From Camelus ferus (lineage: Eukaryota): 64,000 nt of DNA. The stretch lies in NCBI RefSeq assembly GCF_009834535.1, contig NC_045696.1, forward strand, positions 19,160,001 to 19,224,000, given 5' to 3'. Under the pieces are notes generated by a model, which did not search any database, had not been told where the DNA came from, and saw nothing but the letters and a program-made list of their open reading frames with translations. The position numbers and the translations under genes are program-made. Below are positions 1,037 to 50,537 of the stretch, piece after piece. The stretch's first letter is position 1. The number at the start of each line of letters is the position of its first letter.

Positions 1037-1078
1037 AAATTCTGACTCAAATTCTGACTCAAATTCTGACTCAAATTC
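1037..1078. repeat. 12-bp tandem repeat (AAATTCTGACTC) x3.5
   Basis: Read directly: units at 1037-1048, 1049-1060 and 1061-1072, plus partial AAATTC. Confidence 0.95.
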
Positions 1079-6749: not shown

Positions 6750-7668
6750 GCAAGCCTGCTCCTGCGATCAGTAACATCTCAACCACTGTTTACTCCATTA
6801 TTCTGTTTGCTGAAGCCACAGGCTTCAGTGTCATCCTTGATCCTTCTCTTTCTCACACATGTCTAGTTCTCAATGACTCACGTTGACTTTACCTTCAAAA
6901 CATACCCCAAACCTGACAACTGCTCATCTGTCTACTCAGTCATCACCATCTTGGTACAAGTCACGTTCTCTCTCACGAAGATTATTACAAGGGTCGGATA
7001 ACGGGCCTCCTTCCTGTTCGAGCCCTTGTGCTCTTTAGAGTAGTCTTAACACAGTGATCATAGTCACCATATTAAAGCATAAACAGAATCATTTCCATCT
7101 TTTGCTTAAGGCTTTTCAGTGGCCTCCTGTCTCACGCAGGGCAAAACTCCGAGTCCTTCTTAGAGCCTACAAGACCCACTAGTGGCATAGGGTGCACCTC
7201 CGCCCTCACCCTTTCACTGCTCTCCACCTTCCTAGCCCACCTCAGTCCACTCCATTGATGCTGGCTTCTGCCAGTATAGTCTCACCTCAAGGAACCTTGA
7301 ACATACTGATCATTCTATCTGGAAAGACCTTCTCCCATATCACCAAGGCTCATCGTCTCTCCCTGTTAGCTCAAAAACAGTCACAAGTAGTCAAAAGTAA
7401 TGCTCTCAGGGAGGAGGCCTGCCCAGGACACCCCTGTCTAAATCTTCAGCTCTACCCACTCACCTGCACAAATATGCTTTATATCATCTTTCCTGCTTAT
7501 TTCCCATCCTTAGCACACTGAATGTTTAATCTTTATTATGTTGTTTAATCTTTATTATGTTTCTAAGCTCAAAGAGGGCAGAATTTGATTTCTCTTTTGT
7601 TTCCTGATATATCCCCAGTGCCCACTGTTAACAGGCACTCAAGAAAATGTATTGTCGAAGAAATGAAC
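6750..7668 (+). mobile_element. L2 (L2a-like) 3' portion
   Basis: gtcatccttgatccttctctttctcacac...taccttcaaaacatacc...ggaggcctgcccaggacacccctg... and the terminal ggcactcaagaaaatgtattgtcgaagaaatgaa (L2 3' tail). Confidence 0.85.
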
Positions 7669-8960: not shown

Positions 8961-9003
8961 ATGCTCCTATGCAGCAGTATATGCTCCTATGCAGCAGTAT
9001 ATG
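8961..9003. repeat. Perfect 20-bp tandem duplication (ATGCTCCTATGCAGCAGTAT) x2
   Basis: 8961-8980 is identical to 8981-9000, followed by ATG. Confidence 0.95.
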
Positions 9004-15304: not shown

Positions 15305-15805
15305 CATCAACTGAAATTAAGGTACAACTTAAAAGTTGAGAGTTATGTTTTGTTCGGTGGACAATTCTGAAGACTCGAGCTGGGATGACAGCCTCTCAGA
15401 TGGCTCTGAGGGACTGCTCCGAAGAGGTAGGGGAGGAGCTAGGATATATAGGAGCTTTACAACAAAGACCAGGTAGTTGGAACAATAAAAGATTACTTGT
15501 TATCTAAAGAAAACCAGACATCTCAAGTTAAAGAATGTAGTGCTTTTCTATGTAGGGAGGAAGCAAACATTTGGGCTCATTGAATTCATTCCTTTGACAA
15601 GCACCTAGCTCTCTAGGTCCAGTGTCCTGTCCTTTCTTATTCTGAGTCCCCTCAGGGTGCACCATTGTGAGTGGCTGCAGAGGCCGGGCTGCAGGCTTGT
15701 CTTCACTGGGGGTTGGGGCAGCAGCTGATGACTTGATGGCTTCAGCAGTCTGTTTACTGATATGGTTGCAGTATTTTCATTCACATTGCAGTATTTTCGT
15801 TCACA
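15305..15805 (-). mobile_element. Well-preserved ERV1 solo LTR (MER41-like), with a duplicated terminal 20 bp
   Basis: gacagcctctcagatggctctgagggactgctccgaagaggt...aaagaaaaccagacatctcaagttaa...tgggctcattgaattcattcctttgacaagcacct resemble MER41-class LTRs. The minus strand begins TGTGAA. Confidence 0.75.
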
Positions 15806-17447
15806 TAAGTAATAAGTTAATTTGCCTTGTTTTTCATCTCAAAGGCATTTTATGCTTAAAAAAAATCCCTCTAAGATGTTTTGTTTACATTTGTTTTAAA
15901 TAAATGAAGTCATATACAACACTGGCTTATTTATTGGTAACTTGATGAATAAAAAAAATTACAAACTAGCCCTAAGTTTATGCTGATAAGTTACGTTGAC
16001 GAAAAGTTCAAAGTAAAGGTTTACAAAATTATTGTATAGTGTTCTTTTTATATAATTTTGGTATTCTTAAGTATAATTCACTCATCTGAATTTTTCACAC
16101 AGACACACACACACACAGATAGATACACATACCTGCTCAGTCATTCTCTTCTGATTTTACTAGATGTTTCAAGTAAAATACTTGAAATACTTCCCCATAT
16201 AAATCCCAGAATGTATTAGAAAGTAACTGATCAAAAAATAGATTATTTTTGATCCTGAAAATTAAAGGTGATTATATACTTTAAAGCAGCCACGTTGATT
16301 CTGATTTAGCACTCTATGATCAGCAGATATGGGCCTAAAATATTTAACACTACATTTGTAAAATCTGTGTTTAATCCCAAATTCTATTATTATATCAGCT
16401 AAGGATAGTATGGCAGCTCAGATAAAATATATATTTTTAACCTAATTTTATCATTAGTATTCTGTCAGTTTTGCTGAAAAAAAAAAAGATTAGCTGTGAT
16501 TTGCTGTGATTATAAATCTTAAACTCAAAGATTACACATTTTGTGTGTGTTCGTTGTTATCTGAAAACAGCAGGAGGGGTGCTTAAACCTGTGAGGAACG
16601 TACCATTAGTCTCATTGGATCTATTATCTGAGGGCAACAGTGGCTGCTGGCTCAGTGAAGCAATAAATTTAGAAAGCATGCTTCAACTCTCTCAACAAGC
16701 CTTATTATTTTTAAAAAATTTTAGTAGGTCAGTGTTTTGAGGTCTCAGTGACAGTCAACATCATGTTACGAACCTATGTGTGAAAAAAATAGGAGGATTA
16801 TGAATCGTACAAAATATTGTGATAAAACACAGCATTCATCATTCTACTTGCTATTACTCTGGTTACTAAAAATTAGTTTAATAAACAGTATGTAATTTTT
16901 TGAACTCAGAAAAATCATGCTGAGCATTTGGACCCTTTGAGGTCAGCTTACTCCAGGAACAGTTGAAATTTTCTTAGGAAGCCTGCAGGAAAAAGTGAAT
17001 GATAATGGAGCAACTGTGACCCATGAGGAAAGTAATTATATCAGCCTGCTTTGAGGAGGGCATTCAACTCCCATAGTATCATTTGAAAGTTTCTTGACAT
17101 TGGAATTTATACCAATATAGAAGAGTTTCTATTAAACATGTTAATTCTTGATAGAGTGAAAATAGGAGACAGGAAATTCTATTCATCTGGCCATAGAATA
17201 ATTTGAGAATGAAATAGTGAGAAGAACTGCAAATTGCCAGAGGAAGAATCACATAAACAAATAACAATATTTACTGAACACCTATTATGTGCTAGGAATC
17301 TTCACGTGATTGGAACAGAAAAAGAAGAGGTTACCTTGTTGTGAGAAGAGCTAAGGCAAGTGGTACACTGAAAATGGAATAACAATGAAGGAGTTTTTGA
17401 AGGATGGGGAAGATGGAATCTGATAATCAAAAATTCTAATCAATTCC

Positions 17448-26449: not shown

Positions 26450-29130
26450 TTATGATTATTATAAAGTTGTGCCTATTTTATGGAAAACAAGCAGAAAGAG
26501 CAATTCAAGAATAACATATAATTCATTGTGAATAAGCTAAGTCAGCGTAAAACAAGAATTTCTATGAAAATAGAGAATATGTGTACATATAATTTATGTG
26601 TATATGCTAATATATACATATATTTATATGTTCTATATTAAAAACTCACTGGGTTGGTTAAAGTGCTCATTAAATGAAGCTGAATTGAAAATTAATGACC
26701 TAGAAGACCAAGCTAAAATTGCTCAAAATACTGCATAGATACTTAAAGGCATGGGAAATTAAAATAGAAATTAAGAAATATATAATATTAAATGAGAATG
26801 TCTAACATACATAAAGTTGGAGTTCCAGGTGTATAACATATTCAACCTGGTTGGATACATGGCTATATCTGCTTCTTTCCACCTCATTAAATGTCCATTT
26901 TATCCAAGTCATAACACCAGCCAACAATCCATTGCTACTTTATTTGTGATCTCTGTTCAGAATCCCATCTCAGACCTTGATTTCAAAGAGTCAGTAAAGT
27001 CTCATATCCCAGGTACCCCTTTTCATTCCTATTACCCTGAGAAAAGTCTTTATTTTCTCCTTTCTCTGCTTGTTTCCTGATTCTGAAGCTGGCAGTACTG
27101 CATATTTAAACCCATGGGTTGCTTTGTGTTTATAATATATTTGTTTTCAGAAGATATTTTAGAATAAATTAGGTGACAGGTTTATGGTTTATTCCAAAAT
27201 AAAATTTCTTAAAAAATAAAGAAAAATAAAGTCATTTTTCTAGTACAGAAAAGCTGAAATAAGTTATCTTCAGTACACAGACTACAAGAAATGTTCAAGA
27301 AAATTTGTCAAGCAGAAGGAAGTTGATACTGGATGGAAATAAGGATTTATATCCAAGTAATACAAAGCACCAGAAATTGTAACTACATGGATAAATGTAT
27401 GAGATGTATTTCTTTTTATTTAAATCCCTTTAAAAGATAATTGGCTGTTTAAAATAATAATGTATCATGGGATTTATATCATTCAGACATACATACACAT
27501 ATATATGAATACATAAACATGTGTGTAATATAAAAATGCACCCACATATATACAAATATATGACAACACTTTTATAAAGAGTAGGAAGGAAAAAAATAAA
27601 GCATTCTAATTTATGGTTCTTATAAACTCTGTAGAGAGGTATAATATCTCTTGAAACTAGATTGTGATTAGTTAAAGCAACCAATTGCTAAAACAGCAAA
27701 ACAAAAAGATAAAGCTAAATAGGCTATTGAGGTGATAAAATGCATATATAACAATGCTCTATTAATCAAGAACAAAGCAGAGTAAGAGGAAAAAGTGAAT
27801 AAAGAAAAGATGAAGCAAATAGAACACAGTGTGTATAAAATATAAATCTTACTGTATCAATATCATATTACATTTAATTGTCTAAATATTTCAATTAAAA
27901 GGCAGAGATTTTCAGATTAAAAACAAACTCTATATACTGCTGATGAGAAAAAATACAACTATAAAACTGTAAGTATATTAAAAGCAAAATGGTTGAAAAT
28001 GATAAACCACACAAACACTATTCAAAAGAAAGGTGGAATTACCATATTAATATCAAACAACATTGAATTTAGATCAAAGACTATTACTAGATCAAAGACT
28101 TATACTATTACTAGGTATAAGGAAGGTCATCTTATAATAATAAAAGGATCAATTCATCAAAAACAGGTAATAATCCTAAATGTTTATGCTTCTAATAACA
28201 GACCTTTAAAATATGTGAAAGTAAAGCCAATATAGTTCAAGGCAAAATAGAAAAGTCCACAAATATAGTTAGAAATTTCAACCTCCCTCTTCCAACAACT
28301 GAGAGAACAAGTAGAGAAAATCAATGAGGACATAAAAGACTTGAACAGCATTGCCAACTAACTTGACCTAATTGACAATTATTGAACATTCCAACCAACA
28401 ACAGGAACACACACATTGTTTTTAAGTAAAAAACACTTAACCAAGTTGGACCATAAATCAGGTCTCAGTAAATTGAAGAGGGCTGTAATCACATGAAGTA
28501 TTATTTTCTACTACAGTGGAATTAAGTTAAAAGCAAATAACATAGATTTACGGAAAAATCCCCAAAATACATGGGAAGAAAAGAACACTTCTAAATAACC
28601 CAAGTGCAAAAAAACCCACAAAAGTGTTAGAAAGTATTTTTGACAGGATAAAAATAAAAGCACATGTGTCTAAATTAGTAGGATGCTGCTAAAGCAATTC
28701 TAAGCAGAAAATTCATGGCAATAAAGAAAAATCTTAAATCAGTGCTCTCAGCTTTGACTTCAAGCACTAGAATAAGAAGAATAAATGAAATCCAAAAACA
28801 AAGCAATGAGAATGAAATAATAATGATCAGAATAGAAGTCAATAAAATAGAAAACACATAAACAGTGGAGAAATATCTGTAACACAAAATTGGTTCTATG
28901 AGAAAACAAAGTCCATAAATCTCTAACCAGACTGCTAAGGAAAAAAGAAAGTCACAAATAATTGTAAAGAATCAGAAAGGTAACAAAATTCTAGATGCTA
29001 ACAAGTAATTAGGGAATGTTATAAACAACTTTATTCAAATAAATTCAAATTAAGTTCAACATTTAAAATTCCTGGAATGACAAATATGACCAAAGTTCAC
29101 TGAAATAGAAATAGACTTGAAAATAAATAT
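26450..29130 (+). mobile_element. Old L1 (L1M) fragment covering ORF1, the inter-ORF region and the 5' part of ORF2
   Basis: A-rich sense strand with ORF1-like ttggagttccag and aaaagctga, ORF2 endonuclease homology at ~27990-28240, and later motifs ttgacctaattgacaatt, ctaaataaccca and aaataaattcaa. Confidence 0.85.
27993..28235 (+). pseudogene. Decayed L1 ORF2 endonuclease segment
   Basis: The translation HTNTIQKKGGITILISNNIEF..KEGHLIIIKGSIHQKQVIILNVYASNNRPLKYVK matches the L1 APE endonuclease motifs HAN.NQKKAGVAILISDK.DF..KEGHYIMIKGSI.QE.I.I.NIYAPN. It contains a local duplication (RSKTITRSKT) and is bounded by stops. Confidence 0.9.
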
Positions 29131-44874: not shown

Positions 44875-45172
44875 GAATAAATTTGCAGAACAGAAACAGA
44901 CTCACAGACATAAAAAACAAACTTATTAAAGGGGAAAGGTAGAGGGGGAAGATAAATTAGGAGTTTGGGATTAGCAGATAAAAACTACTACATTTAAAAT
45001 AAATAAATAACAAAGCCCTACTGCATAGCACAGGGAACTATATTCGATATCTTGTAATAACCTATAATGAAAAAGAATATATATATACATATGTATAACT
45101 GAATCACTATTCTGTACACCAGAAACTAACACAGCATTGTAAATCAACTATACTTCAATAAAAATTTAAAAA
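44875..45172 (+). mobile_element. Cetartiodactyl-type L1 3' end
   Basis: acagaaacagactcacagacata...gataaattaggagtttgggattagcaga...gcatagcacagggaactatattcgatatcttgtaataacctataatg...gtaaatcaactatacttcaataaaaa. Confidence 0.9.
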
Positions 45173-49410: not shown

Positions 49411-49913
49411 GCTTCTCTGAGTGATAAAATACTGTCATCTATTATTGAATACTTTGATGTGAAGTCTTCCAGACCTCATTTGCCATATTTTATCCAAAGA
49501 TAAAGGTAGAACAGAATAACTAGTCCACATCCATAATAAGTACTAGTATTTAATATATAGATGAATACTGAACTTCTCACCCCATCCTAACAACAGATGG
49601 AGGATTGTTCCACATGGTATAAGACGGTCCTTGAGGGAAGGATGGGAGTTCAACCAGGAGAATGGATTTACAGTGACAGACTTTGTTTTTATCTCTAACA
49701 GGATGTCAGATGTTGTGACATATCTATTTCAGGGTCAGTAAACATCTGGATAGTGTTATCTGGTTTAAACAAAAGTAAGTCATAAAATGGACAAGCGGCT
49801 GACAAATATCCTGACAGCAAACCATGGACTGAAGACATTGCTAGTAGTACAAGCGCAAGCAAACTAAAAGTAGCACAGTGTACACTTTTCTTACGGAGCA
49901 AAGGACTTACATT

Positions 49914-50053
49914 AGCACTGGAGCGGAGGCGGCAGTAGCAGTGGCGGCGAAAGACGGAAGCGAAGCCGGGAGCGCGGGGGCGAGCGCGGGGGCGGGCAGC
50001 GCGGGGGCGGGCGATGCGGGACCGAAGCTGAGGCCCACAGCGGCAACTACAGG
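49914..50053 (+). pseudogene. SART1: Isolated fragment of the SART1 5' coding region (Gly/Arg-rich N-terminus), non-functional insertion
   Basis: The frame starting at 49916 reads HWSGGGSSSGGERRKRSRERGGERGGG[QRGGG]RCGTEAEAHSGNYR, versus the mammalian SART1 N-terminus as I recall it: HRSGGSGGSGGERRKRSRERGGERGSGRRGAEAEARSSTHGR. It is preceded by an in-frame TAG (49913-49915), has no start codon, and has a sharp GC boundary on both sides. Confidence 0.85.
49983..50012. repeat. Perfect 15-bp tandem duplication (AGCGCGGGGGCGGGC) x2
   Basis: 49983-49997 is identical to 49998-50012; a 12-bp copy AGCGCGGGGGCG precedes it at 49971-49982. Confidence 0.95.
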
Positions 50054-50299
50054 ATAGAAACAATGCCAGGATAAGAAGATTTAAAGGGAAGATGACAAAA
50101 ATTGAAAGAGTCAGAAAACAATTGGCAAAGAGCATTTAATTCTCATCTAAGTATGTGTTATAACTGGAGATATTGGTTAATGATAGTGTTAAGCCATCAT
50201 GGCTAGATAAACCATTAAGAACTAAATGCTGACAAAAGTGTGAATTTTTATTGAGCAATAAATATCCATAAGTATTTTACTGAGAGTTTCCTGTGTCAA

Positions 50300-50537
50300 T
50301 AACAAATGATATAAAATAAGATATCAGAAACATGCAGAATTGTTGCATATTTATCATTATTCCACCTTCTAAATTTTTTCTATTTTTAAATTTCTATTAT
50401 GTGGATATTTTATAACATACATATCAGCATGACAATATAAATATATAAACTATAAACAAATAATATCTATATATTGGGAGTAAACTCAAAATTTTTAATA
50501 ATAGAGGTGCATGATTGAAATGGTTTAGTAATAACTG
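50300..50537. mobile_element. hAT/Charlie DNA transposon end fragment (Charlie4-like)
   Basis: tattgggagtaaactcaaaatttttaataatagaggtgcatgattgaaatggtttagtaataactg resembles a Charlie4 terminus. Confidence 0.45.

What the first reader, a model, noticed from the sequence alone, without database searches (positions are those of the whole stretch)
49914..50053. Orphan ~140-bp piece of the spliceosomal gene SART1 in AT-rich DNA, without poly(A) or TSD
Seen: an abrupt GC/CpG-rich island in AT-rich sequence whose + frame from 49916 reads HWSGGGSSSGGERRKRSRERGGERGGGQRGGGRCGTEAEAHSGNYR. Known, from my recall of the protein: SART1 (U4/U6.U5 tri-snRNP protein, Snu66 homologue) has HKHRSGG...SGGERRKRSRERGGERGSGRRGAEAEARS near its N-terminus. 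Several differences are what methyl-CpG deamination of Arg codons gives (TGG, TGC and CAC at Arg positions), which suggests a real, neutrally decaying germline copy rather than a misassembly. L1-made processed pseudogenes normally keep the 3' end and poly(A) and lose the 5' end; here only an internal 5'-CDS fragment is present, with no tail, no convincing TSD and no other SART1 sequence visible in the window. Inference: a templated insertion at a DNA break (RNA- or DNA-templated patch repair) or an internally primed, tail-less retrocopy.
Basis: partly seen in the sequence, partly recalled or inferred. Interest (0 to 1): 0.75.

Follow-up and report, generated by a model that had tools for sequence, protein, structure and literature searches.

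The report
SART1 scrap patched into camel DNA
A roughly 130-base scrap copied from the start of the camel's own splicing gene SART1 sits alone in unrelated AT-rich DNA; it is most likely the scar of an old DNA-break repair in the germline, a known and ordinary kind of event.

Summary
49914-~50045 is a copy of SART1 exon 1 (codons 39/40-77). It carries residues found only in the Camelus protein among 99 SART1 sequences that cover the region, so the donor was the lineage's own gene. Twenty CpGs survive, so the copy is a few to about 20 million years old. There is no poly(A), no TSD and no L1 cut site above chance. It is not an assembly artefact: 13 runs from 7 studies other than the possible source, under two organism labels, hold at least 94% of the words, and two runs bridge the left junction. 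The right junction and the empty site were not seen. Best reading (0.68): a class-2-type templated patch at a germline double-strand break; RNA or DNA template cannot be told apart because the piece lies inside one exon. Main rival (0.17): the stump of a longer retrocopy after a deletion. The kind is published (TSIs/TSIPs, zygote cDNA capture), and this scan noted similar patches in other genomes. Low interest.

The parts
49914..50045 (+). SART1 exon-1-derived core: last 2 nt of codon 39 to first nt of codon 78 (117 nt of donor plus a 15-nt duplication)
   Evidence: Codon-by-codon match to Camelus SART1 P0098: 35 of 38 codons (H40-G77) give the same residue, second duplicate copy left out; PDB and protein searches
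49983..50012 (+). Exact 15-nt tandem duplication, absent from the parent protein; adds 5 codons in frame
   Evidence: Two identical units with no matching base beyond them; 0 of 143 held proteins match a pattern for the 5-aa duplication; no laid locus record covers the second copy
49910..49915 (+). Left junction: 2 nt (49914-15) that fit either side, within 6 nt that are at best 1 change from H38-K39
   Evidence: chance 0.025; bridged by a 1846-bp contig in X5 and in X14 that runs to 49954
50045..50059 (+). Ambiguous right junction: imperfect likeness to SART1 codons 78-82 (at best 11 of 15 nt); either flank with priming/annealing homology or an error-rich end of the insert
   Evidence: chance 0.005 for codons 78-82 but 0.07 for 78-80 and 0.09 for 81-86, endpoint chosen afterwards; changes cluster here compared with the core, Fisher p 0.009; no laid record covers it
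49919..49921 (+). Arg41 to Trp, one C-to-T step at a CpG
   Evidence: a one-step A-to-T from the other Arg codon is formally possible
50015..50017 (+). Arg68 to Cys, one C-to-T step at a CpG
50036..50038 (+). Arg75 to His, one G-to-A step at a CpG

Best explanation
A double-strand break in a camelid germ cell or early embryo was closed with a 117-131-nt patch copied from SART1 exon 1. SHOWN: the donor is camelid SART1 exon 1; the piece is cut off at both ends; no tail, TSD or L1 cut site; three CpG transitions; present under two organism labels. INFERRED: the right-hand broken end annealed to SART1 sense sequence through a short imperfect match (50045-50059), synthesis ran leftward for about 120 nt, and the product was joined to the left end over about 2 nt by end joining. 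The template was either SART1 RNA/cDNA (about 55%; the longer match lies at the end where an RNA-templated copy would be primed) or SART1 DNA (about 45%). The 15-nt duplication arose by re-priming during copying or later. The patch then became methylated and began to lose CpGs. It has no function: it is a neutral scar in a stretch with no recognisable gene.
For: Donor identity and lineage: the motif spanning S42-A74 occurs only in Camelus SART1 among 143 held proteins, 99 of which cover the region. Truncated at both ends and alone in the window. No TSD (longest common word 4 nt, p 0.84); best TT/AAAA match has 2 mismatches, chance 0.76; no run of 6 or more A within 650 nt to the right, nearest AATAAA about 210 nt away. 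Size lies within the 73-414 bp (median 191) of experimental TSIs, and the absence of TSD, signal and tail is the class-2 definition (PMC5110952). Partial mRNA pieces without poly(A) and with short, sometimes mismatched microhomology are captured at breaks in mouse zygotes (PMC4516963). All 3 amino-acid changes in the core are CpG transitions (chance about 0.001 under uniform rates), with 0 of about 62 non-CpG replacement sites changed. Real germline DNA.
Against: No empty site was seen, so target deletion, true microhomology and untemplated bases are unknown. The parent's DNA was not obtained (empty), so junction matches are best-case values from back-translation. The right-junction likeness is modest after the choice of endpoint, and a later deletion would leave a similar trace. 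The right junction was not bridged by any laid record. The piece has no splice junction, so nothing proves reverse transcription. It does not look polymorphic among the listed holders, so it would be a fixed TSI rather than a TSIP.
Confidence: 0.68

Rival explanations
1. Stump of a classical processed pseudogene: L1 inserted a nearly full-length SART1 cDNA, 5'-truncated at codon 39, and one later deletion removed the 3' 2.3 kb, the poly(A), the right TSD and some flank. The imperfect match at 50045-50059 would then be the deletion's microhomology.
For: It needs only one extra event. SART1 has duplicate, diverged copies in other mammals (two Sigmodon hispidus entries, P0061 and P0062; that they are retrocopies is my inference). 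L1 has been active in this lineage: an L1 ORF2 endonuclease remnant lies at 27921-28232.
Against: No L1 cut site 5-25 nt left of the insert above chance, although one should survive there. The copy is young (20 CpGs left), which leaves little time for a deletion that spares only about 120 nt. No other SART1 trace in 64 kb.
Confidence: 0.17
2. Tailless L1 retropseudogene: L1 ORF2p nicked the target, primed internally on SART1 mRNA near codon 78-82 and stopped early; the TSD is missing because the insertion came with a target deletion.
For: The imperfect match lies at the end where target priming would occur. Tailless copies of mRNAs, including 5'-truncated histone ones, exist (PMC5322556).
Against: The class is defined by TSDs and an A-rich cut site with adenosine-rich complementarity. 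Neither is present, and the copy is too young for a TSD to have eroded.
Confidence: 0.08
3. Assembly chimera or contamination: SART1 exon-1 reads were wrongly placed in AT-rich DNA.
For: No listed run reaches a share of 1.00 (best 0.98, about 2 of 83 words missing). No laid record covers the locus from 49998 to the right end of the stretch, apart from short repeat-like matches from elsewhere.
Against: 17 of 24 listed runs hold 0.94 or more; without the insert the share could not exceed about 0.78. 13 of these, from 7 studies, are not flagged as a possible source. One contig bridges the left junction by 40 nt in both X5 and X14. The three CpG changes are not in the parent protein, and the residues are camel, not human or cattle. 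About 41% of the words lie right of the insert, so that DNA is in these runs although the lay did not return it.
Confidence: 0.03
4. The piece is part of a working gene, for example the 146-codon minus-strand ORF 49698-50135 that runs through the insert, or a transcript from the left flank.
For: That ORF is the longest stop-free stretch in the window. An RNA run has a 248-nt contig at 49540-49787, and three RNA-type runs hold 0.22-0.24 of the words.
Against: No homologue for the ORF (0 hits among 1402 candidates; not in the collection; no Atlas hit and low recognition). The RNA contig is unspliced, has depth 2.9, stops about 125 nt before the insert and may be DNA. The raw-read RNA run gave only 14 low-identity partial matches. 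The changes in the core follow CpG decay.
Confidence: 0.02

Closest known systems
Class 2 templated sequence insertions / polymorphisms (TSI, TSIP; Onozawa and Aplan, PMC5110952, parts 1-3 of 4 read)
   Same: Short piece from a distant, transcribed locus; no TSD, poly(A) signal or tail; donor intact; size within the experimental range; must have arisen in a germ cell or embryo.
   Different: Appears shared by two organism labels rather than polymorphic; junction deletion and microhomology not shown against an empty site; carries an internal 15-nt duplication.
Capture of mRNA-derived and genomic pieces at breaks in mouse zygotes (RMDR and non-RMDR; PMC4516963, passages read)
   Same: Partial gene pieces cut off at both ends, no poly(A), short microhomology that may contain mismatches.
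   Different: There the breaks were made by Cas9 and reverse transcription was proven by intron loss in two cases; here the break was natural and the piece lies inside one exon.
Non-classical, endonuclease-independent L1 insertions (NCLI; PMC1920257, abstract and sections 11-12 read)
   Same: Natural germline insertions with no endonuclease signature, microhomology at both ends, read as break repair.
   Different: The cargo there is L1 sequence, at times with an mRNA scrap; here it is host exon only, with no L1 recognised at either junction (by eye; no repeat library available).
Tailless retropseudogenes (Noll et al., PMC5322556, passages read)
   Same: 3'-truncated copy with no tail; possible internal priming by target-RNA complementarity.
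   Different: They have TSDs and an A-rich L1 cut site; this locus has neither.
Classical L1-made processed pseudogenes (established knowledge; class 1 features as listed)
   Same: Dead copy of a housekeeping gene's coding sequence, decaying at CpGs.
   Different: No 3' end, no poly(A), no TSD; intron loss cannot be tested.

Membership tests
Class 2 TSI/TSIP | Insert templated from a distant locus | tested here: met
   SART1 exon 1; no other SART1 sequence in the 64-kb window. The donor's own position was not mapped (no genome held).
Class 2 TSI/TSIP | Donor locus intact | tested here: met
   Camelus SART1 (P0098) is full length and contains residues 39-82; protein level only
Class 2 TSI/TSIP | No target-site duplication | tested here: met
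   Longest common word 4 nt, p 0.84; best anchored candidate 5 of 6 nt and not adjacent to the junctions. Judged without an empty site.
Class 2 TSI/TSIP | No poly(A) tract or poly(A) signal at the insert's end | tested here: met
Class 2 TSI/TSIP | End-joining marks at the junctions (microhomology, microdeletion, untemplated bases) | tested here: inconclusive
   2 nt at left; imperfect 9-15 nt at right, chance 0.005-0.09 by endpoint; needs parent DNA and the empty site
Class 2 TSI/TSIP | Empty (pre-insertion) allele or orthologue exists | not testable with these tools
   No genome held; metagenome scans empty; no look-alike stretch in the scan's index
Class 2 TSIP (polymorphism) | Segregates within the species | tested here: inconclusive
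   17 listed holders all have 0.94 or more, but the list ranks the best holders first, so runs without the insert would not show
Tailless retropseudogene | Flanking TSDs | tested here: not met
Tailless retropseudogene | A-rich L1 endonuclease-type site at the insertion point | tested here: not met
   (chance 0.76)
Tailless retropseudogene | Target-RNA complementarity at the 3' endpoint | tested here: inconclusive
Classical processed pseudogene | 3' end of the mRNA and poly(A) tail retained | tested here: not met
Classical processed pseudogene | Introns removed | not testable with these tools
   The piece (aa 39-78) lies before the point near aa 104 where read-through gene models leave the SART1 sequence (rows P0035-P0048), taken as the end of exon 1

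The most novel reading that the evidence does not exclude
The patch was reverse-transcribed directly at the break from a short nascent or R-loop-held SART1 RNA of the CpG-island 5' end (G-skew +0.35, one G4-type motif), primed by an imperfect 9-15-nt match and re-primed once to give the 15-nt duplication. If so, promoter-proximal RNAs of housekeeping genes would be a distinct, L1-endonuclease-independent donor pool that seeds small orphan CpG-rich spots through mammalian germlines, and a genome-wide census of exon-1-only scraps would show a 5' bias opposite to that of processed pseudogenes.
Probability: 0.1. Interest if true: 0.5.

Novelty: new member of a known kind. Interest (0 to 1): 0.2.

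Why it matters
On the best reading it matters little: one neutral repair scar of a published kind. It is a clean, datable example (donor known, CpG clock readable) and could serve as a presence/absence marker in camelid phylogeny. It would matter more only if a census showed that 5'-end CpG-island scraps without L1 marks are a common, biased class, which would point to nascent RNA or R-loops as germline repair templates.

Tried and rejected
(1) Flanks as an interrupted coding exon: the + frame 49786-49914 looked SAP-domain-like by eye (recalled motif). No Pfam hit, no real PDB hit (E 0.53), and the single hit among 1.84 billion representatives is an unrelated repetitive protein matching 21 residues at 41% through 9 repeats. 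Rejected. (2) Left-flank frame 49565-49738: best PDB E 0.75. Rejected. (3) Minus-strand 146-aa ORF: no homologue. (4) Host gene: 332 of the 333 stop-free stretches of 50 aa or more were scanned against Pfam; 4 weak hits at E under 0.01, all below the curated cut-offs. The scan is not sensitive: it missed the L1 piece that one search found. A crude splice-site scan gave 5 candidates, none near the insert, not followed up. No tRNA or Rfam match. (5) RNA structure as a cause of the endpoints: folding z-score +0.57, no better than shuffles. (6) Parent DNA and empty site: not found in metagenome contigs. (8) Contig breaks at 49925/49954 in both DNA-size runs fit a merge with the parent gene's path but also fit a shared variant; left unresolved. 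(9) microDNA or nucleosome-sized DNA as donor: size and CpG-island origin would fit by recall, but I saw only a search listing and have no test. (10) Literature: SART1 + pseudogene + camel gave 0 papers; SART1 + processed pseudogene gave 14, of which the 8 listed are general retrotransposon papers, seen as titles and abstract starts only. The primary TSIP paper (PMC4419790) is not held, so class proportions and any supplement were not seen.

Full report
Observation. The stretch is present as described. Of all 140-bp windows in the 64 kb, the one at 49915 has the highest GC (0.75) and the most CpGs (20; next best 6). The whole window has 339 CpGs against 1878 expected, while the insert has 20 against 17.5 expected. 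The translated piece has one PDB match up to E 10, SART1 residues 40-76 (E 0.004), and all 3 hits among 148 candidates in the large protein collection are SART1. So the match is specific and not generic Gly/Arg sequence.

Donor. I collected 143 proteins, nearly all SART1; 99 contain the motif that covers this region. Only the Camelus protein P0098 has the insert's run from S42 to A74, including S46 and T70. I saw no New World camelid SART1 among the names listed, so the donor is 'camelid', not shown to be Camelus only. Run sizes of about 2.0 Gb and earlier unchecked scan notes calling this a camel genome agree. Codon by codon, with the second duplicate copy left out, 35 of 38 codons from H40 to G77 give the camel residue. 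The three exceptions, R41W, R68C and R75H, are each one CpG transition away. About 10% of possible replacement changes are CpG transitions, so three of three has a chance near 0.001 under uniform rates; 0 of about 62 non-CpG replacement sites have changed. The piece ends well before the point near residue 104 where read-through gene models leave the SART1 sequence, which I take as the end of exon 1. It therefore contains no splice junction. Camel SART1 finds nothing else in the window, and a 32-nt probe has one match at up to 3 mismatches.

49983-49997 is repeated exactly at 49998-50012, with no matching base beyond the units; this adds five codons that no held protein has. Outside the insert the window has 3 exact non-microsatellite duplications of 12-40 nt, so one falling in about 125 nt by background alone is unlikely (under 1%). 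It may come from re-priming during copying or from the parent's own 12-nt repeats. No laid locus record covers the second copy, and the X14 contig that ends at 49997 has two unlisted differences, so the duplication may vary between animals. The right end is fuzzy. After G77 the next three codons each differ from the parent, two by non-CpG changes, a cluster unlike the core (Fisher p 0.009). 50045-50059 is at best 11 of 15 nt like codons 78-82 (chance 0.005), but neighbouring endpoints give 0.03-0.09 and I tried four. I read this as flank with an imperfect match to the donor, or as an error-rich end. At the left, 2 nt fit either side.

L1 marks. The 25 nt on either side share a longest word of 4 nt (p 0.84 against 5000 random pairs). 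The best TT/AAAA-like site 5-25 nt to the left has 2 mismatches, which random DNA matches 76% of the time. There is no A-run of 6 or more within 650 nt to the right, and the nearest AATAAA is at 50257.

Is it real? Of 24 listed runs, 17 hold 0.94-0.98 of the 83 sampled words of 49600-50400. Four may be the source; the other 13 come from 7 studies and two organism labels. A run without the insert could hold at most about 0.78. In X5 (label A) and X14 (label B) one 1846-bp contig runs from the left flank to 49954, 40 nt into the insert; X14 differs at two flank positions. Against this: no locus record was returned from 49998 to the end of the laid stretch in either run. The tool warns that it leaves records out, and about 41% of the words lie right of the insert, so that DNA is in the runs, but the right junction itself was not seen. 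The best runs miss about 2 words, which could be a private variant or a local error. The list ranks the best holders, so it cannot show polymorphism.

Age. Three of 26 CpG bases where a transition would be visible have changed (12%; 95% interval 2-30%). With about 2.2e-9 per year (1.1e-8 per generation, 5 years; PMC7305198, passages) and a CpG rate 8-15 times higher (my assumption, recalled), the rows for 2.0-2.5e-9 give midpoints of 3-8 million years and a range of about 0.7-22; the lack of non-CpG changes caps it near 19-24. The three Old World camels split 4.4-7.3 Mya, and Old from New World camelids 11-25 Mya (PMC4884201, passages). An origin in the camelid lineage, shared by two labels, fits.

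Surroundings. I found no host gene: 332 of 333 stop-free stretches of 50 aa or more gave no Pfam hit above a curated cut-off, though this scan missed an L1 endonuclease remnant at 27921-28232 that the PDB search found. No tRNA or Rfam family. The flanking frames and the 146-aa minus-strand ORF have no homologues. One RNA run has an unspliced 248-nt contig at 49540-49787, depth 2.9, which does not reach the insert.

Mechanism. The simplest account is a patch at a germline break (0.68). One broken end annealed loosely to SART1 sense sequence near codons 78-82, about 120 nt were copied, and the product was joined to the other end over about 2 nt. These steps are inferred. The longer match lies at the end where an RNA template would have to be primed, which a DNA template would produce only half the time, so I lean slightly to RNA or cDNA (55:45). 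The main rival is the stump of a long retrocopy after one deletion (0.17); the missing L1 cut site at the left and the young age argue against it, but only the empty site can decide. A tailless L1 copy (0.08) fails two defining tests. Artefact (0.03) and functional gene (0.02) are unlikely.

Comparison. It works like a class 2 templated sequence insertion: distant template, no TSD, signal or tail, end-joining marks, experimental sizes of 73-414 bp (PMC5110952, parts 1-3 of 4 read). Four defining features are met, two are inconclusive and the empty site is untestable here, so I file it as a probable, apparently fixed member. Mouse zygotes capture partial mRNA and genomic pieces in the same way (PMC4516963, passages), and natural endonuclease-independent L1 insertions show the same junction logic (PMC1920257, abstract and two sections). 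I found no paper on this locus. Earlier notes of this scan describe similar patches in other genomes, one in a New World camelid; they are unchecked AI notes, were seen after my first reading was recorded, and are not counted as evidence.

Verdict. Real, SART1-derived and correctly spotted; a new member of a known kind; interest 0.2. The bolder reading, that promoter-proximal RNA is a distinct donor pool for germline patches, is not excluded (0.1) but cannot be tested on one locus.

Noticed in passing
By eye the stretch contains a possible 3' splice site near 49702 and a consensus-like 5' splice site near 49775 (recalled motifs); my splice scan did not pick it. Could be a non-coding exon, pre-mRNA or DNA carry-over.
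   Followed up: partly
window 49698-50135 (-): The longest stop-free stretch of the window (146 codons, starting with Met) runs antisense through the insert and both flanks; no homologue found.
   Followed up: yes
window 49786-49914 and 50047-50136 (+): The two flanks are open in the same frame and look SAP-domain-like by eye (recalled motif); Pfam, PDB and the representatives search give no support.
   Followed up: yes
window 27921-28232 (+): Decayed L1 ORF2 endonuclease remnant (PDB E about 1e-11 to 1e-9) inside an A-skewed stretch of about 27-33 kb, probably an old L1.
   Followed up: partly
window about 44880-45165 (+): Looks like the 3' end of an artiodactyl-type L1 (recalled, no repeat library available).
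   Followed up: no
window 1037-1078, 7523-7561, 8961-9003, 15766-15806: Short tandem duplications of 12-20-nt units (three exact, one 95%), used as the local background for the insert's duplication.
   Followed up: partly
window 49925-49997: Contigs of both DNA-size runs break at the same place (49925/49954), next to CpG cytosines at 49924 and 49955; may mark a merge with the parent gene's path or a shared variant.
   Followed up: partly
window 50376-50412: A 37-nt AT-rich piece matches, at about 81%, a contig from elsewhere with the same loose ends in X5, X14 and X18; probably an old repeat or chance.
   Followed up: no
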